Shown here one piece after another: positions 34,469 through 64,000 of a DNA stretch of 64,000 nucleotides. The notes below the pieces were generated by a model that saw only the letters and a list, made by a program, of their open reading frames with translations, was not told where the DNA came from and did not search any database. Source of the stretch: a candidate division WOR-1 bacterium RIFOXYB2_FULL_45_9. GTDB taxonomy: Bacteria; Margulisbacteria; WOR-1; O2-12-FULL-45-9; XYB2-FULL-48-7. How positions within the stretch are numbered: the stretch's first letter is position 1; every line of letters begins with the position of its first letter. The stretch lies in contig MEUD01000001.1 of the NCBI GenBank assembly GCA_001771575.1, forward strand, positions 991,277 to 1,055,276. The letters run 5' to 3'. Made by a program: the position numbers and the translations under genes.

Positions 34469-34489
34469 GATCCGGTATTATAACCCGAA

Positions 34490-46587: not shown

Positions 46588-46592
46588 ATTTA

Positions 46593-47717: not shown

Positions 47718-47722
47718 CCTCC

Positions 47723-49126: not shown

Positions 49127-49139
49127 TCCTAATTCCCTT

Positions 49140-50321
49140 TTATTTGACCGTTCCAGTCAGCCTGTAAGTAAGCACATTGTCATATTTGACCGTTACCTGG
49201 TAGGAGCGTCCTTTAACCAGCGCGGCGCCGGTTATCGCGGCAACGTTTGCCGCCCCGGTGTATTTGGACGAGGAGTCAATGTTCCCCGCGTTATAAACAA
49301 TTCCGGTCAGGCCGACGTGGGTCTGGGTCGTTTCATCATACCAGCCAAAGACGGTAACTGCGTCGGTATTGGCCGGGTTAACCGCGACGTAGGCGGCATT
49401 GATGCTCTTGATCAAACTGTCGACTGTTGTAACAGAAGCGGCGGTATCGTCGGTCACACCGCTGGCAAAATCAAACGGCAGAGAGATGGTGTTGATGCCG
49501 CTCTTACCAATGGGCTTGGTCAGGTTGTACACAATGGTGATCGGACCGCCGCCGACCGCGGTAACCGTAGAGAAAAGTATGTCGGCCGACCATCTCGCGT
49601 CAAATGTTCCGCCCTTTTCCTTGGTCTGCGCGTTGTAGGCGTAAGCTTTTAACACATAATTTTGTCCCGCCAGAAAGTTTTCCGGATTCAATTGGAAGGT
49701 TACTTTGCCTGGAGCGCCGCTGACATCTCCCTGGGCGACGATCGGGACCTGGCCCGCAAGCCGAACTTCATAATGATATCCGGTCGCGCCGTAATAGCTC
49801 GGCGCGTAATTCCCGGTAAATGGGGCTTCCGCCTTAACTTCCAGCGTAGCGGTAATGATCGGCTTGATGGCAAGGGTAAAACCTATTTGCGACGCCAGCC
49901 CGGACGGCGGCGGCGGCGTGTCGATAATTGTCTGCAACCAGGTATTGACCGTGATATCGACCGGTTCGCCCATGGCTGTATAACCGGCCGATAAACTGAT
50001 AGTTCTGTCCTTGGCGCCGCCTGGGGCGCCGGCGTCGCTGGCCGTTAACCTCAAGGTCGCCGAGCCGGCGTTGGCGTCATTGGCCACGGTGTATGGGCCG
50101 CCCGGAGTAATACTCCCCGCGGTAATATCTCTGGATTCAGTAAAAGGAGTGGAAGAATCGGAGAAAGCAGCTTTTCCCCCGTTGGCTGGAGTTCCCGGGA
50201 CCAGATTGACCGAGTTTGTGACAATAGAGAAAAGCCTGGCCTCCGCCGGAATAACAAACAGACCGATCAGGAAAATTGCCACCACCCAACTTAATTTTTG
50301 TTTTCTTTTCATCATATTCAC
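49140..50321 (-). CDS. Secreted paralog-family protein
   Basis: Signal peptide. 'GINTISLPF' module. Confidence 0.6.
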   Translation of the reverse strand: MNMMKRKQKLSWVVAIFLIGLFVIPAEARLFSIVTNSVNLVPGTPANGGKAAFSDSSTPFTESRDITAGSITPGGPYTVANDANAGSATLRLTASDAGAPGGAKDRTISLSAGYTAMGEPVDITVNTWLQTIIDTPPPPSGLASQIGFTLAIKPIITATLEVKAEAPFTGNYAPSYYGATGYHYEVRLAGQVPIVAQGDVSGAPGKVTFQLNPENFLAGQNYVLKAYAYNAQTKEKGGTFDARWSADILFSTVTAVGGGPITIVYNLTKPIGKSGINTISLPFDFASGVTDDTAASVTTVDSLIKSINAAYVAVNPANTDAVTVFGWYDETTQTHVGLTGIVYNAGNIDSSSKYTGAANVAAITGAALVKGRSYQVTVKYDNVLTYRLTGTVK

Positions 50322-50328
50322 TCCTTCT

Positions 50329-51972
50329 TTATTGATACCCCTGAATTGACGGCGTCAGATTCCAATTTATCGGATTGACCGTTCGGGAACGATAGTAAAG
50401 CGGGGTCGCGTTGATCACATCAACGCCGGTCACCCCCGGCTGGGGAGCCCAGGTCCCGTCGGCCTTCAGGAACGAACAGGTATTAAAGCCATTGTTAAGC
50501 CGTCCATAGACCCGGTCGGCCTGTTCCCAGTTGTCGTTCTTTGTCCCAACGTCAAGCTTGATCAAATTAAGGTCCATTTGTCTCGGATAAGGGATCCCGA
50601 CAACATTCCAGTTTTGGGTGATCGTGTATGCCGATACCGTGTTAAGCGGCTTAACGTTCCCGACGATCGAAAAGACCTTGTCGGCATCGGTCGATTTGGT
50701 CAAGAGATATAAGCCCTGTTGCGGGTCGCTAATCGCCGCGTTCGCTCCGGGGACGGCGACCCAAGAATTGCCGTCGTAATAGCTGACCCGGTTCCAGCCG
50801 CTGTTTTCAAAACTGAAGATCCTAACGGAAGTCGCCGGTTCCGAACCAGGAGTGTACGCCCCCTGCTTGCCTAAGATCAAGTTTGGATCGCCCGGCAGAG
50901 CAAGGAAAGGAGAGTTAAATAAGGTCCATTTTTTGCCACCGGCAACAACCACATTGACCTTGCCGACTGCCGGAGCCGTCGCGAATACTCCGCCCTGGGC
51001 AACCGCCTTATAATATACCTCGGCATAGCCAGCCCCAACCTGTCCCTGATGGGTAATCCCATTAGCCGCTAAAGTAAATTCACCCGTATAAGCCGACTCA
51101 ATCGCGCCATTTTCATATACTTTTACCCAATTAGTTGGAGCATCGGTATAAACCCCAACCCCAGAGCCGGTCAGCATCCAAATTGCCGGGTTGTTAATCA
51201 TAAGAGGAGCCCAGCTAATGGTCGTTGAGGCGTTCAGGCCATCTCCGTCGCGTTCAATGTACAGCCCGGTATCAACAATTCCGCCCCCCTTGAGCGCGAA
51301 GTTGACCCAGGAGACTTTGGTTGGGCTAACAGCAGTGGATTTTGTTGCGGGATCGTAACTTGAGGCAACTGCTGTAACACCATGGTCATTACCGGTATTA
51401 AATGTTTGGCTAAATAAATATACGCCATTGGCGCCAGTAGTGGTAGCCGCGCCGTCCGGCAATTCGGACATACCCGCGCCGGCGATCATTTGTTTGGTCG
51501 CTTCACTGGAAACATATCCGGCGATCATCCCACCGCTGAAATCATTTGGTCCTCCACCGGTCACCAAACTCAAGTCGACATCAATATACCCTTTATCCCA
51601 ATTTACCGAAGCAATCTCGGCGGTCCCCATATTTAAAGGCGGGGTAGAAGATCCCCAATGCCTGACAATTGCCATGATAAATACAGGCTTGCCGTCAACC
51701 TCAAGCCAATTTTCTTTTTGATGAAAATATTTTAATTCATAAATATTGAACTTGAACGTTCCGTCACTATTAACTGTAACCTGAAGATTATTGACAGTGC
51801 TACCGTAATCATTGTTAAACACAATTAATTTTCTGGTATCAGTTGCGGTCCAATTGTTAATTTTCCCATTAACCCAATAGAAAGGCATCGTCGGCGCCTG
51901 CGGGTCGGCCGCGAAGGTAGCGCCGGTTATAGCCGCTACCGCAATCATCATTATGATAAACTTTTTAATCAA
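50329..51972 (-). CDS. Secreted paralog-family protein
   Basis: Signal peptide 'MIKKFIIMMIAVAAITGATFA'. 'FYWVNG' and 'VYYKAVAQGG...APAVGKVNVVV...WTLFNSPFLALP'. Confidence 0.7.
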   Translation of the reverse strand: MIKKFIIMMIAVAAITGATFAADPQAPTMPFYWVNGKINNWTATDTRKLIVFNNDYGSTVNNLQVTVNSDGTFKFNIYELKYFHQKENWLEVDGKPVFIMAIVRHWGSSTPPLNMGTAEIASVNWDKGYIDVDLSLVTGGGPNDFSGGMIAGYVSSEATKQMIAGAGMSELPDGAATTTGANGVYLFSQTFNTGNDHGVTAVASSYDPATKSTAVSPTKVSWVNFALKGGGIVDTGLYIERDGDGLNASTTISWAPLMINNPAIWMLTGSGVGVYTDAPTNWVKVYENGAIESAYTGEFTLAANGITHQGQVGAGYAEVYYKAVAQGGVFATAPAVGKVNVVVAGGKKWTLFNSPFLALPGDPNLILGKQGAYTPGSEPATSVRIFSFENSGWNRVSYYDGNSWVAVPGANAAISDPQQGLYLLTKSTDADKVFSIVGNVKPLNTVSAYTITQNWNVVGIPYPRQMDLNLIKLDVGTKNDNWEQADRVYGRLNNGFNTCSFLKADGTWAPQPGVTGVDVINATPLYYRSRTVNPINWNLTPSIQGYQ

Positions 51973-52069
51973 CCTAATTCTCCTAATTTATCCTCAAACT
52001 CGCTAAGCGTGAGCCACACCTTCCACTCCCCTCTGCCTCTTGCCTTCTCCTATTTACCCAATCCCCACT

Positions 52070-53317
52070 CTACGGACCGTTCTTGATAATAATGGTCGTC
52101 TTTGAACTCGACGGCCACAAATTCGTCGCCGGATCTTTCCCAATATAAACCTGATAGCCGACGTTCGGTTCGAGCTTAAGCGCGATGAGGGCGGCCTTGG
52201 CCGTCCCATCCGGGTCGTTATTCGGGATCATGATGCCGGCATCAACTTGCTGGTTCGGATCCCATTTGCCAAAAGTAGAAATAAATTTCTTGCCAGTATT
52301 TTTTCCTGCTACGATATTCACTACCTTTATTAAATCGTATGCCGTTTCAATTTTGCCCAGGCTATTCCCATCAACGTCCGTAGCAAACCATGTTCCGGTC
52401 ATGGTATTTGCCGGCATCGGCATGGCAAAGAAGTTAAAACCAGATTTATTAGTTACAACTTCAAAGGTTATCGGATATGTAAGCGGACCGCCGCCAAGCG
52501 CCGTCCCTGAATACGCGTAGTCTTTCGGATCGCTCCACTTATCGGCAAAACTATTGCCGTGCATTACCCTAAAAGTATAAATCTTTCCCGGTTTTAATGT
52601 CCCGTCCGGCAGACTAAGAGTTTTGCTCGCCAAATCACCAGGGGCTGTTTTTTTGTCGCTGGTTCCTTTTTCCGTGTATTCCCAGCTCTGCCTGGTAATT
52701 TCACGAACACCCTGCCCCGCTCCAGGCGCGGGCTGGGCGGAATAAACTTTAACCGAACCGCTGGTCGTATCAGGTTGGACCAACCAGGAGAGGGTGGTAT
52801 CAAACTGGGTTATAAACGGAATGAATGGCTCGTCGGCCTGATAAGTCGTGCTAAAAGAAACATTCAGCTTTACTGGCGGCGCCGGCGGATTGGGGACCGA
52901 AACCGCCTGATTGTTATAAAAAGCGCCCTGGATGGGAGCGACTGAATTCCAAACCCTGACATAATAAGCGCCGGCGGGAACTTTATAATAATAATCGAAT
53001 TCCCCTGCCTGGGTAATTCCCAAGTTTTCATTGTCTTTTCCAACCGTCGTATTATCAGAAGTTAACAGCGATTGGCCGGTGGCTAAAAACCCGGAATTGT
53101 TTCTGTCGGGAGGGGCCACAGATCCCTTGATCAACTGAACAAGACTGCCAACTTTGACCAGCGCGCCGGTTTCGGTAGTAACGCTATAACCAGGAAGAGT
53201 TGTGTCGGTCCAGGTAGTGAAAGTCACGCCATTATCTTCAGCCAGCGCCAAGCCTGCGGAGAGAGCGATAAAAAGAAATAATGCCCCTATCCTAATTTTA
53301 ATTTTTCTCCTGTTCAT
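52070..53317 (-). CDS. Secreted paralog-family protein
   Basis: Signal peptide 'MNRRKIKIRIGALFLFIALSAGLALA'. 'YYYKVPAGAYYVRVWN' and 'FNFFAMPMP'. Confidence 0.65.
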   Translation of the reverse strand: MNRRKIKIRIGALFLFIALSAGLALAEDNGVTFTTWTDTTLPGYSVTTETGALVKVGSLVQLIKGSVAPPDRNNSGFLATGQSLLTSDNTTVGKDNENLGITQAGEFDYYYKVPAGAYYVRVWNSVAPIQGAFYNNQAVSVPNPPAPPVKLNVSFSTTYQADEPFIPFITQFDTTLSWLVQPDTTSGSVKVYSAQPAPGAGQGVREITRQSWEYTEKGTSDKKTAPGDLASKTLSLPDGTLKPGKIYTFRVMHGNSFADKWSDPKDYAYSGTALGGGPLTYPITFEVVTNKSGFNFFAMPMPANTMTGTWFATDVDGNSLGKIETAYDLIKVVNIVAGKNTGKKFISTFGKWDPNQQVDAGIMIPNNDPDGTAKAALIALKLEPNVGYQVYIGKDPATNLWPSSSKTTIIIKNGP

Positions 53318-53335
53318 TTAATAAACCTCCTAATT

Positions 53336-54643
53336 TTACTTTAACAAGGGATCAAATTCCCATTGTAATGGACCAACGGCCGCCTTGCTCCGGTTATACC
53401 AGAATCCCCCGGCGGCGTCAAAATCAAACATTGTCGTTCCCGTCCAGGATCCCGACTGCCTGATAAGCTTCAACAGGCTTCGATTATAAAGCTCGTCCCC
53501 ATCCGCACCCCCATAAGCGTTGGTAAATCCCGCGTTGGCGACCGGCCTGGTAACACAAGAGCTATTACCGATCCTAAGGAAGCCGGCCGAAACGGAATAA
53601 ACTACCTTTTGGGTTGGAACATCTCCGACAAACGTCACCTTTTTAGCGGCGCCGATCATATTGACGTAAAATCCTTCGCCAAGATCAATAGCCATTGCTT
53701 TGTTCCAGGCGTTGTTAACGTATATTGCTTTATCAAGGTTTGCTTTATAAACCTCATCACCGGTGGAGCTATTGGGTGTCAATTGGCCGCCGATAACAGC
53801 CGAAATGTCCGCGCCCCCCTGCGAGTTCATCGGCATGGCGACCAGGTTCCACCCCTTATTTAAATCAATATTAAATTTACCGACCGCCCAGGCGGACTCT
53901 AAGATTGAAGCCCCATTATACAGGTCGTCCTTAACCTTATCCTTCCACATCGCCTTGTAATAATATTCGGTCGCTCCGCCGCCAACCTGTTGGGTATGCA
54001 GGTAATCCTTCCCGTTGACATTTTTTACCAAACTGGAAGTTATGTCGACCCAATCGGTTTTCGCATTATCAAACGCTCCGCCGCCGGCAGCTTTATTGAG
54101 CCCGAAGATCTTTGGCGGTTTTTGGTCGGCCGTTAATTCATCATCGTTCCAGGTCAATTTAATGTCGTTGCCGGACCGGGAAATAAACAACTGGACCGCG
54201 CCGGGGAGGGGAAGGACCGGACCCTGATCGTATTCAAGGGTAAAGTCAACAACTTCAAAGCCTTGGCCGGTTATTTTGACCTCTTTGGGGTTGGCGCCGT
54301 ACTTATCAATTGGGTCTTTCGCCACCGCGGCATAATACGTCGCCGTTGGGTCGATCGGCAAAGAAGCGTGGTTGTAAATATTGAGCATATATGACGCCGT
54401 TCCCATTACTGGTTGAACATTGCCATACGGAGCGGTTGAAACATAGGCTCCGGGCAAAACCTTATAAAATACTACTTGTCTGCTCCCCCATACCGTTGAA
54501 GCCGCGGGGTTCGTCGAATGCATCGTTAAGGTTCCCCTAAGCCAGTACATGGCGTTAAATACCGGCGGCGGCTCCACCGCAAAGGCGGGGAGGGCCGCAA
54601 AAGAGGTAAGTAACAGTAATAATATTAAGCTGAACTTCTTCAC
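53336..54643 (-). CDS. Secreted paralog-family protein
   Basis: Signal peptide 'MKKFSLILLLLLTSFAALPAFA'. 'YWLRG', 'YYYKAMW...AWAVGKFNIDL...GWNLVAMPM'. Confidence 0.7.
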   Translation of the reverse strand: MKKFSLILLLLLTSFAALPAFAVEPPPVFNAMYWLRGTLTMHSTNPAASTVWGSRQVVFYKVLPGAYVSTAPYGNVQPVMGTASYMLNIYNHASLPIDPTATYYAAVAKDPIDKYGANPKEVKITGQGFEVVDFTLEYDQGPVLPLPGAVQLFISRSGNDIKLTWNDDELTADQKPPKIFGLNKAAGGGAFDNAKTDWVDITSSLVKNVNGKDYLHTQQVGGGATEYYYKAMWKDKVKDDLYNGASILESAWAVGKFNIDLNKGWNLVAMPMNSQGGADISAVIGGQLTPNSSTGDEVYKANLDKAIYVNNAWNKAMAIDLGEGFYVNMIGAAKKVTFVGDVPTQKVVYSVSAGFLRIGNSSCVTRPVANAGFTNAYGGADGDELYNRSLLKLIRQSGSWTGTTMFDFDAAGGFWYNRSKAAVGPLQWEFDPLLK

Positions 54644-54651
54644 ATTTCTCC

Positions 54652-55968
54652 CTATTTGCCGACTTCCCTGGTCATTTTAAAGTTGACGATGCTCGGCGAT
54701 ACGCTTACTTGATAAACCTTATTTTCCAGGGTTTCTGTCCCGTTCCCGGCGGTACCGACTGAACCTGTCCAAACGCCGCTGGAGATGGTATACCCTTCCA
54801 TTCTCTGGGAGCTATTGACGTCTTTATTCCACCAGCCGACCGATTTTACGGCGGCCCCGCCGGCAAAAGTATTGATCGCGTCAACTAATCCTTTGACCGT
54901 CTTAGCGGTCAGTTCGGTGCTGGTCAAAGTCTCTCCCTGTTTTGTGTAAAAGATCGTCTTGGTCGGATCAAGAGTAAACTCGAATTGGTTGACCCCCAGG
55001 TCGGCGGTCTTGACAAGATTAAGGACCATTGATTCTCCGGCCACGCCGCCCCCCTCGCCTATGACCGCGACCTTGAAGGGGATCGCGGGACTAGGCGTGT
55101 TGCCAAAATAGTTGACCGCCACGACCCTGGCGTAATAAGTCGCATTCGTGTCGCTGAAGAAAGTCTTATCCGGATCGTTGGTTTTATCCAGCGTATAGGA
55201 TGTCTCATCCAGCTGAATTTTATAAGGGGGGTTTTGCGAGAACGTCGCGTCCCCTTTATTAATTTGCAGCATATAAGACTTTAACGTCCCATCCCCCTTG
55301 ACCTGGATATTGCCGTTCGCTCCCGTCGTTCCATCTTTCCACGTGAAAGAGAGTTGCGAAACCTTCGCTTCTGTCCCTTCGGGATAAAGGTCCTTATTGG
55401 TCGACTCGACTTGTTTAATTAAAGTTATATCAGGAGAATACGGTTTGTCGGCCTTGTAAAGGGTAAAACTCGAGAAAGTTAAATCAACCGGGACCGGATC
55501 ACCCGATGACCAAAAAGATTGTGGCGCCGAATTTCCATAATAACCATCAGTAGTCCAGTATCTAACGTAATAATTTGTGCTGATCGAATGATCAAATTGG
55601 TTTTTTACCGCGAACCCGCCGTTCCCGGCGCCGTAACCAGTAAAATCGCCAACTTTCCCCTTAACCGCTTGATTCAATAATGTCGCGTTATTTGGGTCCT
55701 TGAAAATCGCGTAAGCATCAGTCCCGGATAACGCCTGGGTCGAATCATTGGCAACAGCGGTCGGCGGGTTACTTGGGGACCCTTTGATAAACTGGACAAA
55801 ACCGGCACCTTTAGCGATAACGCTGGCGTTATAATTTTTCAGTGTTGAGTCCGGCACGATTATCCCGATGTTTTGCAGGTTCGCGAAAGCGAGTGAAGAA
55901 GAGAGCGCAATAAATACCGCCGCCATCACCACCACCCTTAGAAATCTATTTATTATCATAATTATCAT
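54652..55968 (-). CDS. Secreted paralog-family protein
   Basis: Signal-like N-terminus 'FLRVVVMAAVFIALSSSLAFA'. Beta-rich. Confidence 0.6.
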   Translation of the reverse strand: MIIMIINRFLRVVVMAAVFIALSSSLAFANLQNIGIIVPDSTLKNYNASVIAKGAGFVQFIKGSPSNPPTAVANDSTQALSGTDAYAIFKDPNNATLLNQAVKGKVGDFTGYGAGNGGFAVKNQFDHSISTNYYVRYWTTDGYYGNSAPQSFWSSGDPVPVDLTFSSFTLYKADKPYSPDITLIKQVESTNKDLYPEGTEAKVSQLSFTWKDGTTGANGNIQVKGDGTLKSYMLQINKGDATFSQNPPYKIQLDETSYTLDKTNDPDKTFFSDTNATYYARVVAVNYFGNTPSPAIPFKVAVIGEGGGVAGESMVLNLVKTADLGVNQFEFTLDPTKTIFYTKQGETLTSTELTAKTVKGLVDAINTFAGGAAVKSVGWWNKDVNSSQRMEGYTISSGVWTGSVGTAGNGTETLENKVYQVSVSPSIVNFKMTREVGK

Positions 55969-55976
55969 TTCCTCCC

Positions 55977-57278
55977 TTAATTATCCGAGTATGTTCTTTC
56001 CCAATTTACCGTCGCTGAAGTTTTTTTCAGCGAATAATAGTACCCATTTGGAATATTAAAACCGAAGTCGGCCGGCACCGTCGGGTTGGCCGACAAATAC
56101 CATTTGCCGTCAGACTTCAAGAAAGCATTTTTCATCCCCCAGGAAGCCGGCGAATTCTTTAAATAAATCTCGTCGGCGCTTATCGGATTGGCGCCGGCGG
56201 TCGTGTTCGCGACATTTAATAGGCCCAAAGAATCGAGCGTTTTGTTTTGCGGCCAGACTACGCCAACCGCGTTAAACCCGGTTTTCATGACTATGATCTG
56301 GTTGCTTTGTGAAACATTTCCCACTGCCGTTATTTTGGCGCTGTTCGCTTTTATTGAAACTAAATAGCCTTTATCCCGACCAACAGTAAACGCGGCCGGC
56401 GTATTAACCGATGAAGACAAGTACCAGCTGCCATTGGTTTTTTGGAAAGCGTTGGTCATTCCCCAAGAAGCAGAATCTTGTTTGTAATATATTTCGTCGG
56501 CATTGATCGGACTATCCTGCTTGGTCAATTGTTGTCCGAATACATTCACAAGGGCATCCCCGCCAGTATTATATGTAAAGGGAAGAGAAACCAGGTTATA
56601 TCCTACGGCCAAGCTCATATTAACCTTCCCCACCGCCGGGGCAACCGCAAAACAGGGCTTGCCATTGTAGAGTGGGTCAGGATCGGTACAGATCGTTTGC
56701 GGGGTAACCCCGGCCTGCAAGCCAAAGTAGAACGCTTCGCCATGGTTAGAGAACCCGGACGGCACCACACTGCCGACTTGTTTGTTGTGATATAAAACGC
56801 CGGTCGCGACAGAGCCGGCATTAAACTGTCCGGCAATTGTTGAGTCGGTGTAAAGCTTCCAGGCGGCGGGATCATTTTTCTGGAACTTTCCGGACCCATC
56901 ACCGGTCAAGACATAAATTTGCGCGCCGGGAGCCTTGGTCGCCTCCCAGGTGATTTTGATATTCTCACCATCACGGGAAATATAAAGAGGGACCGTACCC
57001 CAGGGAGCCGTGTCAATCTTTGTCCCTCCGCCAAACAAACCAAAGAGGCCGGGGATAAACGTTATTGTTCCGCCGGCATCGGTCGTTTTGGGGCCCAAGG
57101 CGTCGCCAACCGCATTATATAGTTGGATAGTATTGCCGGTGTCTTGCAGTCTCGGCCCGGCGCCGTTAATGTTATCATACAGGACCGTGGTCCCGTCTTG
57201 AGATTGCAGTTCATCGGCCATGGCCAATCCAGCCATCACCAACAAAATCAAACTAATTAGGGCCCACTTTCTCTTCAT
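55977..57278 (-). CDS. Secreted paralog-family protein
   Basis: The track ORF runs to 57404. The internal ATG 57278 gives signal peptide 'MKRKWALISLILLVMAGLAMA'. 'APAVGKVNMSLAVGYNLVSLPF'. Confidence 0.65.
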   Translation of the reverse strand: MKRKWALISLILLVMAGLAMADELQSQDGTTVLYDNINGAGPRLQDTGNTIQLYNAVGDALGPKTTDAGGTITFIPGLFGLFGGGTKIDTAPWGTVPLYISRDGENIKITWEATKAPGAQIYVLTGDGSGKFQKNDPAAWKLYTDSTIAGQFNAGSVATGVLYHNKQVGSVVPSGFSNHGEAFYFGLQAGVTPQTICTDPDPLYNGKPCFAVAPAVGKVNMSLAVGYNLVSLPFTYNTGGDALVNVFGQQLTKQDSPINADEIYYKQDSASWGMTNAFQKTNGSWYLSSSVNTPAAFTVGRDKGYLVSIKANSAKITAVGNVSQSNQIIVMKTGFNAVGVVWPQNKTLDSLGLLNVANTTAGANPISADEIYLKNSPASWGMKNAFLKSDGKWYLSANPTVPADFGFNIPNGYYYSLKKTSATVNWERTYSDN

Positions 57279-57306
57279 TAATTTAAAAAGCCTTAAATTC
57301 CCTTTT

Positions 57307-57501
57307 TTAACCGACTTTTGCTTCCAGCCGATCAAGCCGCCGGTCCTGCTCCCGGTCCTTGCCGATTGCCAGCATCCGGTCTTCCCGAGCCTTGACCAAC
57401 TCATCCATTACTTTATCGAGAGTCGTCATAATCTCTCGATGGTCATCCTTGGTCGCAAAGACCTCTTTTAATTTTTCAACATCTTTATTGGTTATGGTCA
57501 T
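57307..57501 (-). CDS. Small coiled-coil hypothetical protein (64 aa)
   Basis: ORF with AGGGGA/TAGGG RBS. Highly charged helical sequence. Confidence 0.35.
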   Translation of the reverse strand: MTITNKDVEKLKEVFATKDDHREIMTTLDKVMDELVKAREDRMLAIGKDREQDRRLDRLEAKVG

Positions 57502-57555: not shown

Positions 57556-60500
57556 CTACTGCAGAGTCACCAGGACCAGGAGTTTTCCTTTTTGTCCAGC
57601 CGGCATTGATTTGAGCGCTTTGCCGATAATCGTCCCCGCCTGGGGGTTGGCCGGCGCTTTCATGGCGTAACCCGGGTTGGCAGAACTGACCAAAAGGTCT
57701 CCCGGCTCGATCGCGCCGCTGGTCGCGTCAACCTTAACGTCATAGCGGCCGGTGTAAACGATCGGCTTACCGTCTTTGAGCTCGTCATTCATCGTCAAGC
57801 CGCCTTCAGTTCCGCGGTAGACGCCGGCAACTTTTGTCGAATTGGCGACATTACAAACTGACATTTGGTCGCTCCCGGAGATCATCATGACGTCACCATC
57901 TTCGGCCGCGCCGGAGACATTGTGCTTTTCGTTCAAGTCAGCAGCCGTAATCGCGGTGTTGGTCCCATAGTATTTCCAAGCGTAAATCCTTCGCCACTTC
58001 AAGCTTGATGTCCCTAAGTAATAACCCGTTGTGTCACCCGTTGAATTAACCTCCGGATAAACATTGCCGTTAAAGGTCGATCCCTGTTTAAATTTCAATT
58101 GAGCAGGGATATTTATGATAAACCCACCAAAGTTCAGTGAATATGCCGCTTTATATTCCATCCAATTAGACAGGTTTTCGGTTGAGTTGGCAAATGTTAC
58201 TTTCGACAAAGAAATGGTCCCGGTTGTGATCTTTGAGGCATCAATGTTAGGGATTGCCGTTGTAGCCAGAGTTCCCGTAACTTTGCTGGCGCTTATGCTG
58301 GCGATCCTGGCGTCAGCCAAGGTCCCGGTCGTGATCTTGGAGGCGTCAAGGTTAGGAATCGCGGTTGTAGATAGAGTCCCAGTAATCTTGCTGGCGCTAA
58401 CGCTCGCGATCCTGGCGTCAGCCAAGGTCCCGGTCGCGATCTTGGAGGCGTCAAGAGCGGGAATATCGGTCGCCGCCAGTGAGCTCTTATAGGCGAGCGA
58501 ACCCAAAGCCGGCTTATTCGCGATGTCGGTCGAATTATAGTCAACCGCGTTCTTGGTCGCCAGCGTTCCTAAACCGGAAATTTTAGAGGTCGACAAAGTC
58601 CCATCCATATCACCCAGCGGCGCCCGGAAAGCACTGATCTTGTGCCAGCTCCCCCCCATCATATCCATATACATTCCGGTCTCACCAAGAGTACCAGAAT
58701 TGACGAAAGCCAACGCGCCGCTACCAGTTGAAGCCGGCAGGTTGGCAACCGAAGCAACCGTCTTAAACGCGCTTGCTCCGGCAATCGCGCCCGCTGCTAA
58801 TTTATCCCCAGTTACTACGCCAGCGCCCAATTGACTTCCGGCCAATGTCCCAGTAATCTTGCTCGCGCTTATACCTGCTAATTGGTTGTCTGTGAATTGA
58901 CCACTGACTTTGCTGGCGCTTAAGCCGGAAATCTGGCTGTCGGCAAACTGGCCGCTGACCTTGCTGGCACTTAAACCAGAAATCTGGCTGTCGGTCAATT
59001 GGCCAACAAGGCTCCCGGCGTTGATGCCGCCGGTTATATCACTTTCGGTTATACTGCTTTTAAAAGCTAACGTGCCCAGGCCATTGCCGGTGATCGCCGA
59101 AACCGCGCCGGAGAGCTTGCTGGTGTTAATGCCAGCCCCAGTCATAATGTCGAGGTTAGATATAGTTCCATCGGCAATCTTGCTGGAAATAACCGAGTTG
59201 TCGGCTAGCTTTGATGAAATAACCGAAAAATCAACTAATTTCGGGCTGGTGACGGAGTTATCAGCCAGCGCCAAACCGGCAACTTCGGTTTTTAAGGCGT
59301 ATTGGGTTAGCACATCTTTTGAAGCAAACGCATTATTTAAGCCTGACAATAACGGATTGGTTGCTTCAGTCATCGGGTTTTGAATAGCCTCCAATAGTGG
59401 GCTGACTACTTTTTGCTTCCAGTCGACCATTTCGTTGTAACCCCATTCTGGTTCAGGCCAAGAGATTGGCGGCCATGGCCCAACGAGTTCTTCCTTCCAA
59501 CCGCCCGGAGGAAACAGGGGTGTGTTTCCAACTCTGGCATAAATCTCTGCCACATTGCTTTGCTTCACGTCAACTCCATTCAATCCTTTATCCTGGCAAT
59601 AATAATAACGATGCTCGTCCGGGCTTGTTCCCGAAACATCAAACAAATTCCTTTCCGAGTTTGCCGGCATATTTACAATTTGGTTATACCAAGAGTCGGA
59701 TTTGATCATATATTCATAGTTTTTACCTGTTAATCTCATCGTCCAATTATATCCAGTGGTCCCCGCCTGGTCACCTGTCGTTCCATCATTGCTATAATAT
59801 TCAAGATCGGCATTATCTTCATAATCATACCCGTCTAATTCGCCAATTTTTACCCATTGCCCCTTCTTTCCAGCAAATGCGCTGGGAGCAACTAAAAATG
59901 AAACATTTTCCGCTTGCGGCGCGTGATTGAATGGCGGGGGGACTGCCGAGACCGCCTTTGCCGCGTTAACAAGCACGTAAGAAATTACGGCACTTTTGTT
60001 TGTCACTTTAACCTTAAAATACCCGTTACCAACCTCTGTCAACACCGCTTTCTCATCATTTTTAGGGGTCATCAGAATTATGGAGTCCGTTTTTACATAA
60101 TCATTGTTAATCTTTAATTGAAACCAACTTGATTCCGCATGGTAGCTTGTTCCCCATAAAACAGTGACACTGTCCAATATTATCCAACCGGCCAGCATAT
60201 TCTTTTTTGGGACTTCGACCGTTCTAATATTAAAGTTATCAACAATGTTTAATGTCCCGCTTAAATTAACTACATCTGATTCCATGCTGATATATCCACC
60301 CGTATGGTTCCTGGAATTTACGGCATTTACAGAATTGATCGAAGAAATTGAGTATGGTGAAGATAATAACGGGGTCTTGTATGATTGCGCATTGTTTTTA
60401 TCGGTTAATAAATAATTCCCCTTATAACTTATTGATAAATAATAATGACTATCAAAATTAGCAGTTATTTTATTCGCGGTTGTCGTTCCAAGCCTTGCCG

Positions 60501-60759
60501 TAAAAAAACCATTCTTGTCAGGATATACTTTAATTGTTTCCTCCCATATCTTTGTCGTGCTAGCAAGGGTCGGCCACAACGCGAAGGTCACATCAACGCC
60601 TAAAGCTGAATCCACGGGTTTGTCGTTTTCTTTTAAAACTCCCTGAACGTTAAAGCTCTTTGTAAGTTCAGCAAACACACACAATTGTAATAGCACAACA
60701 CCAAGCAGTAAAAACAGCCCCAATCTCCCTTTCATAAATACACTCCTTAATTGATTCAT
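57556..60759 (-). CDS. Large secreted repeat protein with tail-fibre-like 18-aa and 34-aa tandem repeats
   Basis: Signal peptide. 'SGLSASKVSGQF.DSQI' x3 and 'DASKITTGTLADARIAS.SASK.TGTL.TTAIPN' x2.4 (102-nt units, about 90% identical). Confidence 0.7.
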   Translation of the reverse strand: MNQLRSVFMKGRLGLFLLLGVVLLQLCVFAELTKSFNVQGVLKENDKPVDSALGVDVTFALWPTLASTTKIWEETIKVYPDKNGFFTARLGTTTANKITANFDSHYYLSISYKGNYLLTDKNNAQSYKTPLLSSPYSISSINSVNAVNSRNHTGGYISMESDVVNLSGTLNIVDNFNIRTVEVPKKNMLAGWIILDSVTVLWGTSYHAESSWFQLKINNDYVKTDSIILMTPKNDEKAVLTEVGNGYFKVKVTNKSAVISYVLVNAAKAVSAVPPPFNHAPQAENVSFLVAPSAFAGKKGQWVKIGELDGYDYEDNADLEYYSNDGTTGDQAGTTGYNWTMRLTGKNYEYMIKSDSWYNQIVNMPANSERNLFDVSGTSPDEHRYYYCQDKGLNGVDVKQSNVAEIYARVGNTPLFPPGGWKEELVGPWPPISWPEPEWGYNEMVDWKQKVVSPLLEAIQNPMTEATNPLLSGLNNAFASKDVLTQYALKTEVAGLALADNSVTSPKLVDFSVISSKLADNSVISSKIADGTISNLDIMTGAGINTSKLSGAVSAITGNGLGTLAFKSSITESDITGGINAGSLVGQLTDSQISGLSASKVSGQFADSQISGLSASKVSGQFTDNQLAGISASKITGTLAGSQLGAGVVTGDKLAAGAIAGASAFKTVASVANLPASTGSGALAFVNSGTLGETGMYMDMMGGSWHKISAFRAPLGDMDGTLSTSKISGLGTLATKNAVDYNSTDIANKPALGSLAYKSSLAATDIPALDASKIATGTLADARIASVSASKITGTLSTTAIPNLDASKITTGTLADARIASISASKVTGTLATTAIPNIDASKITTGTISLSKVTFANSTENLSNWMEYKAAYSLNFGGFIINIPAQLKFKQGSTFNGNVYPEVNSTGDTTGYYLGTSSLKWRRIYAWKYYGTNTAITAADLNEKHNVSGAAEDGDVMMISGSDQMSVCNVANSTKVAGVYRGTEGGLTMNDELKDGKPIVYTGRYDVKVDATSGAIEPGDLLVSSANPGYAMKAPANPQAGTIIGKALKSMPAGQKGKLLVLVTLQ
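58220..58470. repeat. About 2.4 tandem 102-nt coding repeats inside 57556..60759
   Basis: Read directly. A second set of 54-nt repeats lies at about 58895-59020. Confidence 0.6.
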
Positions 60760-60786
60760 TTTATTTATCCTCCTAAATTAATTCTT

Positions 60787-62682
60787 TCAATAACTATCCC
60801 AATTGAGCAGGTCTCGGTTTAGGAGTTCCTGCACAACTTTGGTCCGCTGAAGCATTTCCACCGTCTCGGCGCGGGTCAACTGTTTGTTCGGTTCAAAGCC
60901 GCGCCCTTTCAGGTATTCCAGGATACCGGCGCTGTAAGCTCCCGAGATCCTCTGCGCCGCCCAGTGATTGACCCTGATATCAGGGAATTGATTTAAGTAG
61001 ACCTCTTCCGCGATCCCCGCGAACCGGGCGATCATCAGGAGCCCCTCGGCCCGGGTGATCTTCCCGTTCGGCTTGAAGACGTTCCCAGGGTAGCCTAAGA
61101 CTACTCCCTTCTTGGCCGCTTCGGCGATGAATGGAGCCGCCCAATGCTTGGCCGAGACATCTTTGAAGGCCGCTTTGGCGTCTGCAGTCGGCACCCCGAT
61201 CATTGACTTGATCAGGAGGGAGCACATCTCGGCCCGGGTAATGTTGCCTTCCGGCTTAAAGGTCCCGTCAGGGTAACCGGTGATCACTCCGGCCATCGCC
61301 AGAAGCGAGGTCGGCTTGTCAACCCAGTACCCAATGGGGACATCCGGGAAGGTGACCAGTCGCAAAATGCGCGGCCGCTTCCCGAAGATAAAAGCCTTGT
61401 CGGCGTAAGATTCGATCGAAATGGCGTTCTTACCAATATAGAGGTCGTAGGTCGTGGCAAACATCCCCTTGAGATTGAACTTGACCGGCACCCCATTCGC
61501 CCTTAAACTCTTGACCCGATAGTCAACCACCTCACCCGAAACAGGGACCTGCGCCGCAAAGGTGATCAACTTGTCTTCAGGAGAGAAGAGCTTGAACGCC
61601 TCTTTGGGGATCTCGATCTTGGGGGGCTGGAAAGCGTATGAAAGGGAGAAGAAGCTATTGTCGATGTTAGGCGCTCCTGCAAAGGTGTGGTAAGCGTAAT
61701 CAAAGCGGAAACCGCCGTAGTAGAGCCCGACACCATAGGCCATATCGGAAACGGTCGTTAAGCCTCCGTTTCCGTCGCCGGCTGAATCCTGGTCGATCCC
61801 GGCCCTGATCCCGATATAATCTATTGGTTTCCATTCCGCTCCAAGATGCATTAGCCCCGGGAAATTCTTCATTGTCGGGTGGAGCTCGTAATCGGCCAAT
61901 ATTATTAATTTATTTTCGCCGATTTTATATAAACTGTCTGTTTTACCCAAAAGGTTGACGCTTGTTCCCAGAAAAAAGACCGCCGGATAATATTCCGTGT
62001 GTCCCGAAGCGTAAGTCAGCTTTCCCCCCATCGCGGCGGGCAAAACATTGGTCCCGGTCGCACCGATCTTCAGCCACTTTTGCGGCTTGATCGTTAAACC
62101 AAGATCAAGCTCGTAGCCGCTGGCGTCGCCGCCGACGATACTGTCACCGTAGAGCGCCGCTTTGAACAACTTAACGCTGGCACCGATCGAGATCTTATCG
62201 GCAAAGGGGAGTTTGTCCAACCTAACATAACCCATTTTCTTGAGTTCGTTGGCATAGGAAATGACCATGGCGTTGTTGTAATTCCCCATGACCGGCTGGG
62301 AAGAGTCGACCACGAAGATCGGATCGTCCGGGTCGGAGGCCGCTTCAATGGTGGTGGCAAAAGCGCCGCCGATCGAGGTCCCGGCAAAACCAAAGCCGAT
62401 CACCCCAAAGTCGGTGGCGTAAAGTCCGGAAGCGGAGAGGTAGGAGTATTCATCAAGGAATTTACCGGACATGGAAGAGAGTTGCCACCCTTCAATCCCC
62501 GCCATACCGGCCGGGTTGGAGTACATTGCCCCCGCGTCATCAGACAAGCCTATGTAAGCTTTGCCTAAACCAAGGACCCTGGCGTTAGGAATATAGCGGG
62601 TCGGGTCCTGGGCGACATATTCCGCCAGGGCAACCCCCGCGACTAACAACATTAACACTAATAGAGTTATAACTCTTTTCAT
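60787..62682 (-). CDS. FadL/PorV/PorP-like beta-barrel + 3x SLH (barrel-SLH 3)
   Basis: The track ORF starts at GTG 62697. ATG 62682 gives 'MKRVITLLVLMLLVAGVALA'. 'LGLGKAYIGLSDDAGAMYSNPAGMAG'. Three SLH repeats ('FPDVPIGYWVDK...', 'FKDVSAKHWAAPFI...', 'FPDIRVNHWAAQRI...'). Confidence 0.8.
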   Translation of the reverse strand: MKRVITLLVLMLLVAGVALAEYVAQDPTRYIPNARVLGLGKAYIGLSDDAGAMYSNPAGMAGIEGWQLSSMSGKFLDEYSYLSASGLYATDFGVIGFGFAGTSIGGAFATTIEAASDPDDPIFVVDSSQPVMGNYNNAMVISYANELKKMGYVRLDKLPFADKISIGASVKLFKAALYGDSIVGGDASGYELDLGLTIKPQKWLKIGATGTNVLPAAMGGKLTYASGHTEYYPAVFFLGTSVNLLGKTDSLYKIGENKLIILADYELHPTMKNFPGLMHLGAEWKPIDYIGIRAGIDQDSAGDGNGGLTTVSDMAYGVGLYYGGFRFDYAYHTFAGAPNIDNSFFSLSYAFQPPKIEIPKEAFKLFSPEDKLITFAAQVPVSGEVVDYRVKSLRANGVPVKFNLKGMFATTYDLYIGKNAISIESYADKAFIFGKRPRILRLVTFPDVPIGYWVDKPTSLLAMAGVITGYPDGTFKPEGNITRAEMCSLLIKSMIGVPTADAKAAFKDVSAKHWAAPFIAEAAKKGVVLGYPGNVFKPNGKITRAEGLLMIARFAGIAEEVYLNQFPDIRVNHWAAQRISGAYSAGILEYLKGRGFEPNKQLTRAETVEMLQRTKVVQELLNRDLLNWDSY

Positions 62683-62714
62683 TAATTTACTTACCACTTA
62701 ATACTTGCCGCTTA

Positions 62715-64000
62715 TTATCTAATATGATGCTGGAGCATTGATCCGGGAATGAGCAGGATCGGCGCCTTCGCGATCCTTTTGCCGGTCGCCGGATCGATAA
62801 AAATCGACATCCCGATCTGGGCGGCGCGATCCGGCCGCAAGTCCTGGGTCTGAGCGGTCAGCCTGGCCCGGTCGGCCCGGACGCTGACGTCCATTTTCTT
62901 TGTCCCAAAAGCGCCGGTTTTGCTGAAAGTTTTGCGGTAGATGACCTGTCCGGTCCTGGCCCCGCTGACAATGATCCACTGGATCTGGTCCGGCAAATTC
63001 CCGTTCTTGGTCCAGACCGTGGCGTAGAAGTTCCCTCCACCGTCAATCTCCACCGGAGTAGTGATCGCCCTGGTCTCCTCAACGGCGGTCCCTCCCCCTC
63101 CCCCTTCGGTATAAAGGTCATAGCGGATTATCCCAACATGACCAGCATCGTCTTCGGCGTAAAAGAAGAGGGTGACCGGCCGGCCATCAGTGTTGGGCAA
63201 ATTTGCGTTAAAAATAAAGTTTTCTACGTACGCTTTGAGCGGCGGAACGGTCGAATCGTCAAACCGGATGTAACTGCTTGGGATGTCTTCAATAACGGTG
63301 ACAATGTTTATCCCTTCATTATACCTGGCAACAACCTTCGCCCTGACCGTGCTCGCGTTCAATGAATTGGGCAAAATGGTTGAAATGTCAAAACTGATCC
63401 TCGGGTTGGGGCTGACGGTCGTGGCAGGGGTTTCGGAAAGAAGGGCTTCCGGATAAACATTGCCGTTGATCGAGACCCTGCTGATCGTTACCTCGCCCGA
63501 TCCATTAATAATAGTTAAGGCGTTAATCTCTCTGGTCGCGGTCGAATCGGGATTGGTGACCAGCAGGTCCCTGGTCCCCGCCTCAATGCTCGGATCGATA
63601 AAAATGTTAATCACAATTTTACTTGCGCTTTCGTAAGTCGTTGACCTGACATCAACATCATAATCAAACGAGGTTTCGCCGCTCTTCATAAAGGCCGATG
63701 ACAGGGGACTGCCGCCCGGATACGACGGCATAAAATCGGTCCCGCTGACTTCGATCGTCCCGATCCAGCCGCGATACCTGGTGCTGGGAGTAAGGGCTGT
63801 TACCGTCGGCGAGCGGAGTCGGTAGATCCGTCCGATGTCGCCGCACATATACGCGTAAACCCCGGCCAGTTCACCCGGATAGACCAGCCGGACAAAAATA
63901 TCCTGAATGTTGGTCGCCGGGGTGTAATCATATATCCCCCAGTTGGACCCGCCGTCGGTCGTGTAAGCGGTCACTCCGCTATCCCCCGCGACCCAACCAA
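62715..64000 (-). CDS. Ig/TIG-like surface protein, 5'-truncated by the window edge
   Basis: The reading frame stays open upstream of the first in-window start (GTG 63974) to the window end. No signal peptide is visible. 'VTALTPSTRYRGWIGTIEVSGTDF' is IPT-like. Confidence 0.55.
   Translation of the reverse strand, partial: GWVAGDSGVTAYTTDGGSNWGIYDYTPATNIQDIFVRLVYPGELAGVYAYMCGDIGRIYRLRSPTVTALTPSTRYRGWIGTIEVSGTDFMPSYPGGSPLSSAFMKSGETSFDYDVDVRSTTYESASKIVINIFIDPSIEAGTRDLLVTNPDSTATREINALTIINGSGEVTISRVSINGNVYPEALLSETPATTVSPNPRISFDISTILPNSLNASTVRAKVVARYNEGINIVTVIEDIPSSYIRFDDSTVPPLKAYVENFIFNANLPNTDGRPVTLFFYAEDDAGHVGIIRYDLYTEGGGGGTAVEETRAITTPVEIDGGGNFYATVWTKNGNLPDQIQWIIVSGARTGQVIYRKTFSKTGAFGTKKMDVSVRADRARLTAQTQDLRPDRAAQIGMSIFIDPATGKRIAKAPILLIPGSMLQHHIR

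What the first reader, a model, noticed from the sequence alone, without database searches (positions are those of the whole stretch)
57556..64000. Third cargo/barrel-SLH pair on the opposite strand, flanked by a tail-fibre-like repeat protein
On the minus strand, an Ig/TIG protein (62715->window edge) is followed 17-32 nt later by a third barrel-SLH paralog (60787..62682, same NPAG motif and 3 SLH). It is followed in turn by a 1067-aa secreted repeat protein. Recurrence of the gene pair at an unlinked position and orientation argues that the pairing is functional rather than a duplication artefact.
Basis: partly seen in the sequence, partly recalled or inferred. Interest (0 to 1): 0.6.

Follow-up and report, generated by a model that had tools for sequence, protein, structure and literature searches.

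The report
Wall-tethered PorV-like anchor with cognate cargo
In an uncultured relative of cyanobacteria, a surface protein gene sits directly before a gene for an outer-membrane barrel that resembles the cargo carrier of the Bacteroidota type IX secretion system but carries cell-wall-binding domains; this pairing recurs across the phylum, which suggests a so far undescribed way of fixing proteins to the cell surface.

Summary
The window comes from a Candidatus Margulisbacteria (WOR-1) genome.

- **Barrel gene, 60787..62682 (-).** It encodes a signal peptide, a 14-strand PorV/FadL-type barrel with an NPAG plug motif, an Ig-like spacer and three SLH domains. The model has pLDDT 89.6. Its best solved-structure match is the barrel chain of a substrate-bound T9SS translocon.
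- **Upstream gene, 62715..>64000.** This is the 3' part of a 697-aa secreted protein, recovered in full at 100% identity. It has a Ycf48-like BNR propeller, Ig-like domains and a C-terminal beta-sandwich of about 90 aa.
- **The C-terminal domain.** It escapes Pfam and NCBIfam. Its ortholog profile matches the T9SS-type CTDs of the plus-strand cargos (hhalign 97%, E 9e-11; controls at most 1.1%).
- **Adjacency.** CTD gene followed by barrel gene holds in all 11 orthologous loci and in 28 of 43 barrel genes overall.
- **1067-aa neighbour.** It is a fast-evolving, mosaic, tail-fibre-like secreted repeat protein.

Best reading: a cognate cargo-anchor pair, a fused, SLH-based analogue of PorE-PorP-cargo or PorQ-PorZ anchoring. 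Whether a T9SS translocon exists in this genome was not testable. I rate it a new variant of a known kind.

The parts
62715..64000 (-). 3' 1.28 kb (427 codons) of the cargo gene. The full protein is 697 aa: signal peptide, Ycf48-like BNR beta-propeller, Ig-like domains, C-terminal CTD-like domain.
   Evidence: The ORF is open to the window edge. P0124 (WOR-1 bacterium RIFOXYA12_FULL_52_29) is 100% identical to the fragment and 697 aa long. PSII_BNR scores 40.7 bits, above the cut-off of 27. It is the first gene of the operon; the gene upstream of it is a divergently oriented CCA-adding enzyme gene.
63546..63809 (-). Ig-like 'choice-of-anchor Z' repeat shared with the plus-strand cargos.
   Evidence: NCBIfam NF058597 at E 5.5e-6, 26.4 bits, below its cut-off of 30. 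BLAST gives 27-31% identity to 16540..19587 and 11644..16521.
62742..63008 (-). Divergent CTD-like C-terminal beta-sandwich (fragment residues 331-419), followed by a short conserved tail, GSMLQHHIR.
   Evidence: hhalign 97%, E 9e-11 against canonical CTDs, with controls at most 1.1%. The combined CTD HMM scores E 4e-17, but that HMM includes this sequence. AF2 predicts strands at 323-416 with pLDDT 63-83. There is no direct Pfam or NCBIfam hit.
60787..62682 (-). Barrel-SLH gene (631 aa): PorV-family outer-membrane barrel fused to an Ig-like spacer and three SLH domains.
   Evidence: NCBIfam PorV_fam at E 1e-15, covering profile positions 11-326 of 326. AF2 pLDDT is 89.6. The Foldseek top hit is 8gl6_F, followed by SLH crystal structures and then TodX/FadL. 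More than 120 full-length homologs were found; nearly all those named by a source are Margulisbacteria, Saganbacteria or WOR-1.
61630..62622 (-). Plug helices plus 14-strand beta-barrel (residues 21-351). The NPAG motif lies at 62506-62517.
   Evidence: AF2 secondary structure. N56, P57 and G59 are invariant. Two insertions relative to the paralogs (residues about 108-135 and 298-313) fall in predicted extracellular loops; the loop assignment is my inference from the strand order.
61360..61596 (-). Ig-like spacer domain (residues 363-441), predicted to be periplasmic.
   Evidence: Glucodextran_B at E 1.1e-6, 28.9 bits. AF2 predicts a beta-sandwich.
60814..61350 (-). Three SLH domains (residues 445-623), each with a TRAE motif. 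Predicted to bind pyruvylated wall polymer in the periplasm.
   Evidence: PF00395 at 111.6 bits, three stretches. Foldseek TM 0.74-0.86 to the Sap and SpaA SLH trimers solved with pyruvylated ligands. The TRAE motifs are visible in the sequence.
57556..60759 (-). 1067-aa secreted, mosaic, tail-fibre-like repeat protein.
   Evidence: PHROG tail families at E 2e-8 to 2e-4. R-pyocin fibre 6cl6 at E 0.003 on the LDASKI..G.LA repeat. DNA tandem repeats. Patchy homology to the positional counterparts. Only two homologs in 5.8 billion proteins.
45439..57404 (-). Rest of the co-directional gene row: ten secreted proteins of about 380-550 aa with no Pfam family above its curated cut-off. The last one (45439..46587) is a second CTD protein with no adjacent barrel gene.
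   Evidence: ORFs. Pfam gives no family above its curated cut-off: none for eight, only sub-threshold CarbopepD_reg_2 (16.6 bits) and FlgD_ig (19.4 bits) hits for 50329..51972 and 45439..46587. Paralogy groups. The CTD of 45439..46587 scores E 4e-33 with the seed HMM, of which it is a seed member. The same gene order occurs in L005 and L006.
16540..25265 (+). The two plus-strand cargo/barrel-SLH pairs used for comparison: 16540..19587 + 19598..21559 and 21622..23343 + 23343..25265.
   Evidence: PorV_fam scores 103 and 93 bits, both above the cut-off of 90. The cargo C-termini hit Por_Secre_tail and the C-terminal parts of PorZ and PorU.

Best explanation
This is a cognate cargo-anchor gene pair at the head of a conserved operon for cell-surface proteins in a diderm Margulisbacteria genome.

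Shown here:
- The downstream gene encodes a PorV-family 14-strand outer-membrane barrel fused to an Ig-like domain and three SLH domains.
- The upstream gene encodes a Sec-exported BNR-propeller/Ig protein that ends in a divergent T9SS-type CTD.
- The order CTD gene then barrel gene is conserved and recurrent across the phylum.

Inferred mechanism:
- A 14-strand barrel has both termini in the periplasm, so the Ig-like spacer and the SLH triplet hang in the periplasm.
- There the SLH triplet binds pyruvylated wall polymer, which tethers the barrel and the outer membrane to the cell wall.
- On the outside, the extracellular loops of the barrel hold the CTD of the protein encoded just upstream. 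PorV loops hold type A CTDs in the same way, and PorQ/PorV permanently hold PorZ/PorU.
- The result is a non-covalent surface anchor that runs from the displayed protein through the outer membrane to the wall. It is a single-polypeptide, SLH-based counterpart of the Bacteroidota PorE-PorP-cargo complex.
- Multiple paralogous pairs per genome, and paralog-specific loop insertions, suggest one barrel per cargo class.

Not established: how the cargo crosses the outer membrane, whether through a T9SS-like translocon or otherwise.
For: Barrel identity:
- NCBIfam PorV/PorQ family match over the whole profile.
- AF2 model at pLDDT 89.6 with plug helices, 14 strands, an Ig domain and three SLH domains.
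- The best PDB match is the barrel chain of the substrate-bound T9SS translocon 8gl6 (E 2e-12). The SLH part matches Sap/SpaA SLH trimers solved with pyruvylated ligands.

Cargo CTD:
- hhalign 97%, E 9e-11, with negative controls at most 1.1%.
- The canonical partners hit TIGR04183, PF18962 and the PorZ and PorU CTDs.
- A Lys near the C-terminus (IAK) is retained. A single conserved Lys is the main conserved contact of type A CTDs with PorV (PMC10994853). Positional equivalence was not tested.

Pairing:
- 11 of 11 orthologous loci keep the pair.
- 28 of 43 barrels have a CTD gene directly upstream, and 4 more lie in CTD-barrel-barrel triplets.
- The odds ratio is about 40.
- No terminator-like site lies in the 32-nt and 27-nt gaps.

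Precedent:
- FadL-family barrels PorP/SprF bind their cognate CTD cargos, are encoded next to them, and PorP is tied to peptidoglycan through PorE (PMC9143113).
- SLH-barrel proteins tether the outer membrane in diderm Terrabacteria, including Margulisbacteria (bioRxiv 10.1101/2021.05.31.446380).
Against: - No physical interaction was tested, and no complex prediction was available.
- The window's own CTD is not recognised by any public model. Its homology rests on a transitive profile comparison; the three closest sequences alone give only 39% / E 3e-4.
- The third barrel scores 58 bits, below the NCBIfam cut-off of 90. HMMER finds no PorV in the PDB by sequence.
- The cargo model is poor (pLDDT 57.6) and its fold search returns only generic Ig hits.
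- Eleven of 43 barrels lack a detectable CTD gene upstream. Some have FlhA or an aminotransferase there, and some have the CTD gene downstream instead.
- No T9SS translocon, motor or sortase gene lies in the 64-kb window. In Bacteroidota the CTD binds PorV together with SprA.
Confidence: 0.6

Rival explanations
1. The pair belongs to a complete T9SS. The barrel-SLH proteins act as PorV-type shuttles that collect CTD cargos from a SprA/Sov-like translocon encoded elsewhere in the genome. The CTD is then cleaved by a PorU-like sortase, so the barrel is a carrier and not the final anchor.
For: The barrel is closest in fold to PorV within the translocon complex. The canonical CTDs match type A sorting-domain models and the PorU and PorZ CTDs. 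In Bacteroidota, CTD binding needs SprA as well as PorV.
Against: A barrel fixed to the wall by three SLH domains cannot easily shuttle laterally. A one-to-one gene pairing with several paralogs per genome resembles the PorP/SprF anchor pattern more than a single general PorV. The papers read here describe T9SS as a Bacteroidota system. No paper in the library links it to Margulisbacteria or Saganbacteria. No T9SS core gene is present in the window.
Confidence: 0.2
2. The barrel-SLH protein is simply an outer-membrane-to-wall tether or a FadL-like uptake channel, an OmpM functional analogue. It happens to lie among surface-protein genes, and the upstream C-terminal domain is just another Ig-like module with no specific link to the barrel.
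For: SLH plus beta-barrel is the working definition of OmpM tethers, and these were reported in Margulisbacteria and Saganbacteria. TodX and FadL are also good structural matches. Some barrels have no CTD gene next to them. The family is large: 1139 clusters, and 96 of the top 150 carry SLH.
Against: Adjacency is tight (-32 to +44 nt) and strongly enriched, with an odds ratio of about 40. The domain always sits at the extreme C-terminus. It matches CTD models and not other Ig domains of the same proteins. PorV ranks above FadL/TodX in both sequence and fold searches. A tether role and an anchor role are not mutually exclusive.
Confidence: 0.12
3. The region is a phage-derived or duplicated remnant. 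The 1067-aa protein is a prophage tail fibre, and the cargo/barrel pair is a passive copy of the plus-strand pairs.
For: Weak PHROG tail-fibre hits and an R-pyocin fibre repeat. Peptidase_S74 in one positional counterpart. The three barrels are paralogs.
Against: The fibre protein has a signal peptide and sits in a cellular operon with conserved order. No other phage gene was found among the neighbouring genes scanned against Pfam. The third barrel is only 30-33% identical to the other two, and its cargo has a different N-terminal domain. The pair is conserved across species with 54-86% barrel identity.
Confidence: 0.03

Closest known systems
T9SS PorP/SprF-type B CTD cargo pairs and the PorE-PorP-PG1035 complex (Porphyromonas gingivalis, Flavobacterium johnsoniae; PMC9143113)
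   Same: A CTD-bearing surface protein is encoded next to a dedicated 14-strand FadL-family barrel. That barrel binds the cargo and is tied to the cell wall. There are several cognate pairs per genome.
   Different: Here the barrel belongs to the PorV/PorQ family, not the PorP family. The CTD resembles type A/FlgD_ig. The wall link is three SLH domains fused to the barrel, not a separate PorE lipoprotein. The host is a Terrabacteria phylum. Binding has not been shown.
T9SS carrier PorV, and the attachment-complex pairs PorV-PorU and PorQ-PorZ
   Same: Closest sequence family (NF033709) and closest fold (8gl6_F). PorV loops bind type A CTDs on the outer face. The in-window canonical CTDs match the retained CTDs of PorZ and PorU.
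   Different: PorV has no SLH or Ig extension, is a single general carrier, and works with the SprA translocon. The third barrel falls below the curated family cut-off (58 against 90 bits). No T9SS core was seen in the window.
OmpM/Slp outer-membrane tethers of diderm Terrabacteria (bioRxiv 10.1101/2021.05.31.446380)
   Same: SLH domain(s) and an outer-membrane beta-barrel in one polypeptide, within a phylum reported to use SLH-based tethering. The SLH part matches solved SLH domains by sequence, including SLH-domain entries 8bym and 8bys of about 430 residues.
   Different: The domain order is reversed: barrel first, SLH last. There are three SLH domains and an Ig-like spacer. The barrel is a plugged 14-strand PorV/FadL type, not a porin. 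It is paired with a CTD cargo gene.
Phage and pyocin tail fibres, and bacterial tail-fibre-like trimeric surface fibres with an S74 intramolecular chaperone
   Same: Fibre-type sequence repeats, weak PHROG tail-fibre matches and a mosaic, fast-changing composition. One positional counterpart ends in Peptidase_S74.
   Different: The window protein has a signal peptide and no S74 or any other Pfam domain. It is encoded in a cellular operon.

Membership tests
PorV/PorQ family (NCBIfam NF033709) | Score at or above the curated cut-off (90 bits) over the full-length profile | tested here: inconclusive
   The third barrel scores 58.2 bits, E 1e-15, covering profile positions 11-326 of 326. That is below the cut-off. 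The two in-window paralogs pass at 103.3 and 92.8 bits.
PorV/PorQ family (NCBIfam NF033709) | 14-strand FadL-type outer-membrane barrel with an N-terminal plug | tested here: met
   The AF2 model (pLDDT 89.6) has plug helices and 14 long strands between residues 66 and 351. The Foldseek top hit is 8gl6_F (E 2e-12, TM 0.63 on the target), ahead of TodX and FadL. That chain F is PorV is my inference from its size and fold and from the composition given in PMC10994853.
Type IX secretion system (as a system) | SprA/Sov translocon, PorK/L/M/N motor and ring, and PorU sortase encoded in the same genome | not testable with these tools
   Pfam scans of most of the window's large ORFs, and NCBIfam scans of nine of them, named no T9SS core component for any of them. 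The rest of the genome could not be scanned. No paper in the library links T9SS to this phylum.
T9SS type A C-terminal sorting domain (TIGR04183 / PF18962) | Direct match of the protein's C-terminus to the curated models | tested here: not met
   The window C-terminus has no hit. Among 11 orthologs, none hits Pfam and one hits TIGR04183 at E 0.085.
T9SS type A C-terminal sorting domain (TIGR04183 / PF18962) | Homology to bona fide CTDs by profile-profile comparison, located at the extreme C-terminus, with a beta-sandwich fold | tested here: met
   hhalign gives 97%, E 9e-11 against the canonical set, of which 8 of 13 hit TIGR04183. Controls score at most 1.1%. The domain ends 8 residues before the stop. 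AF2 predicts about seven strands at moderate confidence. The fold search itself was uninformative.
OmpM (SLH-porin outer-membrane tether) | N-terminal SLH followed by a C-terminal porin-type barrel | tested here: not met
   Both an SLH region and a barrel are present, but the order is reversed and the barrel is PorV/FadL-type. It does fit the looser definition 'SLH + beta-barrel' used.
SLH domain (PF00395) | Three SLH repeats with TRAE motifs that fold like SLH trimers binding pyruvylated polymer | tested here: met
   111.6 bits, three stretches. ITRAE, ITRAE and LTRAE are visible in the sequence. TM 0.74-0.86 to 3pyw, 6bt4 and SpaA-SLH. Ligand binding itself was not tested.
Tail fibre with S74 intramolecular chaperone | Peptidase_S74 C-terminal domain and significant similarity to tail-fibre families | tested here: inconclusive
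   The window protein has no Pfam hit. PHROG tail families match at E 2e-8 to 2e-4. The counterpart in L006 has Peptidase_S74 at E 6.8e-16. The counterpart in L005 has no hits.

The most novel reading that the evidence does not exclude
Margulisbacteria, a sister phylum of Cyanobacteria in the Terrabacteria, may use CTD recognition by PorV-family barrels without any T9SS translocon. In this reading each barrel, fused to SLH domains, both tethers the outer membrane to the wall and displays its cognate surface protein. CTD-PorV recognition would then be an anchoring module that is older than, or independent of, type IX secretion, and an 'inverted OmpM' would be a major envelope organiser in this phylum.
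Probability: 0.3. Interest if true: 0.8.

Novelty: new variant of a known kind. Interest (0 to 1): 0.62.

Why it matters
CTD-based sorting and PorV/PorP carriers are treated as a hallmark of Bacteroidota. SLH-based envelope tethering is treated as a hallmark of diderm Terrabacteria. This locus joins the two in one polypeptide and pairs it with a cognate cargo.

- The family is large: at least 1139 clusters at 50% identity, and 96 of the top 150 carry SLH domains.
- It has no Pfam family for its barrel, and no paper in the searched library mentions it.
- If the anchor model holds, it explains how an uncultured phylum builds its cell surface.
- It also provides natural cognate CTD-barrel pairs for studying recognition specificity.
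- It bears on how type IX sorting evolved. If a full T9SS is present instead, that would extend the system's known phylogenetic range.

Tried and rejected
- **Exact look-up of the barrel protein.** Four contigs were found, and all break 180-316 nt upstream of the barrel gene, so they did not give the cargo's 5' end. The 5' end came instead from a homolog search that returned a 100%-identical full-length protein, P0124.
- **Direct Pfam and NCBIfam scans of the third-type C-termini.** No significant hit.
- **HMM built from canonical CTDs only.** The window copy scored E = 2, which is not significant on its own. Orthologs scored 1e-5 to 1e-3.
- **AF2 of the cargo fragment with a 7-sequence alignment.** The model is poor. 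Its Foldseek search returned only generic Ig tandems, with PorU at ranks 7 and 13. I treat this as uninformative.
- **HMMER against PDB sequences with the barrel profile and with a paralog.** Only the SLH regions matched; no PorV was found by sequence.
- **Rfam and promoter/terminator scans.** Nothing specific.
- **Literature searches for PorV with SLH, and for T9SS with Margulisbacteria or Saganbacteria.** Nothing relevant.
- **Prophage origin.** Rejected because of the conserved cellular synteny and the signal peptides.
- **Two-partner-secretion-like translocator role for the barrel.** Rejected because a plugged 14-strand barrel without POTRA domains is unsuited to exporting a folded 70-kDa protein. 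This rests on my own knowledge of these families.

Full report
**1. Observation**

ORF listing and translation confirm the three minus-strand genes at the stated coordinates.
- An ORF is open from the window edge down to its stop at 62715.
- A 631-aa gene follows at 60787..62682. An alternative GTG start lies at 62697, so the gap after the upstream stop is 32 or 17 nt.
- A 1067-aa gene follows at 57556..60759, 27 nt after the barrel stop.

The 631-aa protein has three SLH domains (PF00395, 111.6 bits) and a weak Glucodextran_B-type Ig match. It aligns end to end with the two plus-strand paralogs at 33% identity and shares the NPAG motif with them. In 69 homologs N56, P57 and G59 are invariant.

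The 1067-aa gene contains real DNA tandem repeats of 105 nt and 51 nt.

**2. Organism and the missing 5' end**

Among homologs of the barrel-SLH protein that carry a source name, nearly all are named Candidatus Margulisbacteria/Margulisiibacteriota, Saganbacteria or WOR-1.

Exact look-up of the barrel gene returned only contigs that break 180-316 nt upstream. A search with the upstream protein of the 86%-identical locus L005 then returned P0124. This 697-aa protein from WOR-1 bacterium RIFOXYA12_FULL_52_29 is 100% identical to the window fragment.

The complete cargo has these parts:
- a signal peptide;
- a Ycf48-like BNR propeller (PSII_BNR 40.7 bits);
- an Ig-like 'choice-of-anchor Z' repeat shared with the plus-strand cargos;
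- further beta domains and a C-terminal domain of about 90 aa.

It is the first gene of its row. The gene upstream of it is a divergently oriented CCA-adding enzyme gene.

**3. The barrel**

NCBIfam places residues 32-351 on the whole PorV/PorQ family profile at E 1e-15 and 58 bits. This is below the cut-off of 90. The two paralogs pass at 103 and 93 bits.

AlphaFold2 with 69 homologs gives pLDDT 89.6. The model shows:
- short plug helices that carry the NPAG motif;
- 14 long strands at residues 66-351;
- an Ig-like sandwich at 363-441;
- three SLH units at 455-623.

Foldseek against the PDB gave the following:
- First is chain F of 8gl6, the substrate-bound T9SS translocon (E 2e-12). I take this 367-residue FadL-type barrel to be PorV, from the complex composition in PMC10994853.
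- Next come SLH trimers of Sap and SpaA, solved with pyruvylated ligands (TM 0.74-0.86).
- TodX and FadL follow.

A 14-strand barrel has both ends in the periplasm. The Ig and SLH part should therefore be periplasmic and able to bind wall polymer. This is an inference.

**4. The cargo's C-terminus**

I built two alignments of last-100-residue segments.
- A4 holds 11 third-type orthologs.
- A5 holds 13 other CTD-like ends, taken from the window and from relatives.

The results were:
- A5 members match Por_Secre_tail (6 of 13) and FlgD_ig (7 of 13) in Pfam. In NCBIfam they match TIGR04183 (8 of 13) and the CTDs of PorU and PorZ.
- A4 members match nothing significant.
- Profile against profile, A4 and A5 align over 91 columns with probability 97% and E 9e-11.
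- Three control beta-sandwich domains from the same proteins score at most 1.1%.
- The link is transitive. The window copy plus its two nearest orthologs reach 39% / E 3e-4 against A5. They reach 90.6% against the remaining orthologs, and those orthologs reach 96.8% against A5.
- The AF2 model of the fragment is poor overall (pLDDT 57.6). It does predict a roughly seven-strand sandwich at residues 323-416 with pLDDT 63-83. Its fold search was generic.

**5. Conservation of the pairing**

A genome scan with a barrel-only alignment returned 34 loci. About 28 of these come from Margulisbacteria, Saganbacteria or unclassified MAGs, and the rest are distant SLH-less PorV-like genes in Cloacimonadota and Krumholzibacteriia.

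Ortholog loci L005, L006 and L008-L015 all keep the same order:
- BNR-propeller cargo;
- barrel-SLH;
- a large variable protein;
- several secreted proteins of about 400 aa.

In L009 and L010 a CTD protein of about 380 aa follows further downstream, as does 45439..46587 in the window.

Across all 43 barrel ORFs found in the window and 30 loci, the neighbours were as follows:
- In 28 cases the gene directly upstream on the same strand, at -32 to +44 nt, carries a CTD at its extreme C-terminus.
- Four more are the second barrel of a CTD-barrel-barrel triplet.
- Several 'exceptions' have upstream proteins that end in a CTD-looking domain after a poly-Thr linker, judged by eye.
- True exceptions have FlhA or an aminotransferase upstream, or the CTD gene downstream.

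CTD genes are followed by a barrel in 28 of 48 cases, against 11 of 323 for other genes. Two caveats apply: the CTD HMM was partly seeded from such neighbours, and orthologous operons share ancestry.

**6. The 1067-aa protein**

- It has no Pfam or NCBIfam family.
- It matches PHROG tail-fibre and minor-tail families weakly (E 2e-8 to 2e-4).
- It matches the N-terminal repeat of an R-pyocin tail fibre at E 0.003.
- Its positional counterparts share only pieces with it. The N-terminal 140 aa are shared with L005 and L029, the C-terminal 115 aa with L005, and the middle repeats with L006.
- The L006 counterpart ends in Peptidase_S74 and matches many tail-fibre families strongly.
- Only two homologs exist among 5.8 billion proteins.

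I read it as a secreted, mosaic, fast-evolving fibre protein of cellular use. Prophage origin is unlikely given the signal peptide and the conserved cellular synteny.

**7. Mechanism**

The best-supported model is a cognate anchor. The CTD of the upstream protein is held by the extracellular loops of its barrel, and the barrel is tied to the wall by its SLH domains.

Precedents:
- PorV loops bind type A CTDs (PMC10994853).
- PorP/SprF barrels bind and anchor their adjacent type B cargos, and PorP is tied to peptidoglycan by PorE (PMC9143113).
- SLH-barrel proteins tether the outer membrane in diderm Terrabacteria.

The third barrel carries two insertions relative to its paralogs. These map to predicted extracellular loops, which fits recognition of a divergent CTD. 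This is an inference.

Two things remain unknown: how the cargo crosses the outer membrane, and whether the genome has a T9SS core. No T9SS core component was named for any of the window's ORFs that were scanned, and the genome as a whole could not be scanned.

**8. Novelty**

The barrel-only domain finds 1139 clusters at 50% identity (154 at E 1e-30 or better). Of the top 150, 96 carry SLH domains. The sources call them only 'S-layer homology domain-containing protein'.

No paper in the searched library combines PorV with SLH, or T9SS with this phylum. The parts are known, but the fusion, the host phylum and the one-to-one pairing are not described. I therefore rate it a new variant of a known kind, with moderate to high interest. 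The finding extends the plus-strand pairs and does not stand alone.

Noticed in passing
window 47723..57404 (-) and 11644..16521 (+): Five secreted proteins (47723, 50329, 53336, 55977 and the C-terminus of the 1625-aa 11644 protein) share a module of about 300 aa. It ends in a G[YF][YW]Y...W motif at the extreme C-terminus. No Pfam family above its curated cut-off matches any of them there. It may be a second kind of C-terminal sorting or assembly domain.
   Followed up: partly
window 45439..46587 (-): A 382-aa protein with a clear T9SS-like CTD closes the row of secreted-protein genes, and no barrel gene follows it. Orthologs of about 375-395 aa recur near barrel-SLH genes in many relatives. 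In L030 one lies directly upstream of a barrel.
   Followed up: partly
L001-L004, locus starts: Four independent metagenome assemblies of this exact barrel gene all break 180-316 nt upstream of it, inside the CTD-coding end of the cargo gene. This may reflect strain-level variation there.
   Followed up: no
proteins P0167, P0171, P0235 (relatives of the barrel): Three barrel relatives have no SLH region. In its place they carry a charged Lys/Glu/Pro-rich linker and a C-terminal hydrophobic helix. This may be a different way of tying the barrel to the inner membrane.
   Followed up: no
L020, L022, L028, L034: In these loci two barrel-SLH paralogs lie in tandem behind a single CTD cargo gene. 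In L020 and L028 another CTD gene follows the second barrel.
   Followed up: partly
window 25478..26170 and 26224..27333 (+): Two otherwise unrelated small proteins, with hydrophobic N-terminal segments followed by a Cys, share a nearly identical 18-aa C-terminal motif, DPCAGKTGVFLSACK.
   Followed up: no
window 3319..8858 (+); L006 1..832: A Ser/Thr protein kinase gene and a PP2C phosphatase gene lie upstream of the plus-strand cargo cluster. A Pkinase gene also flanks the related locus L006.
   Followed up: no
window 34001..36000: GC drops to 0.418 here, against about 0.53 on either side. The dip covers a methyltransferase gene and part of a 795-aa ORF with no Pfam hit.
   Followed up: no
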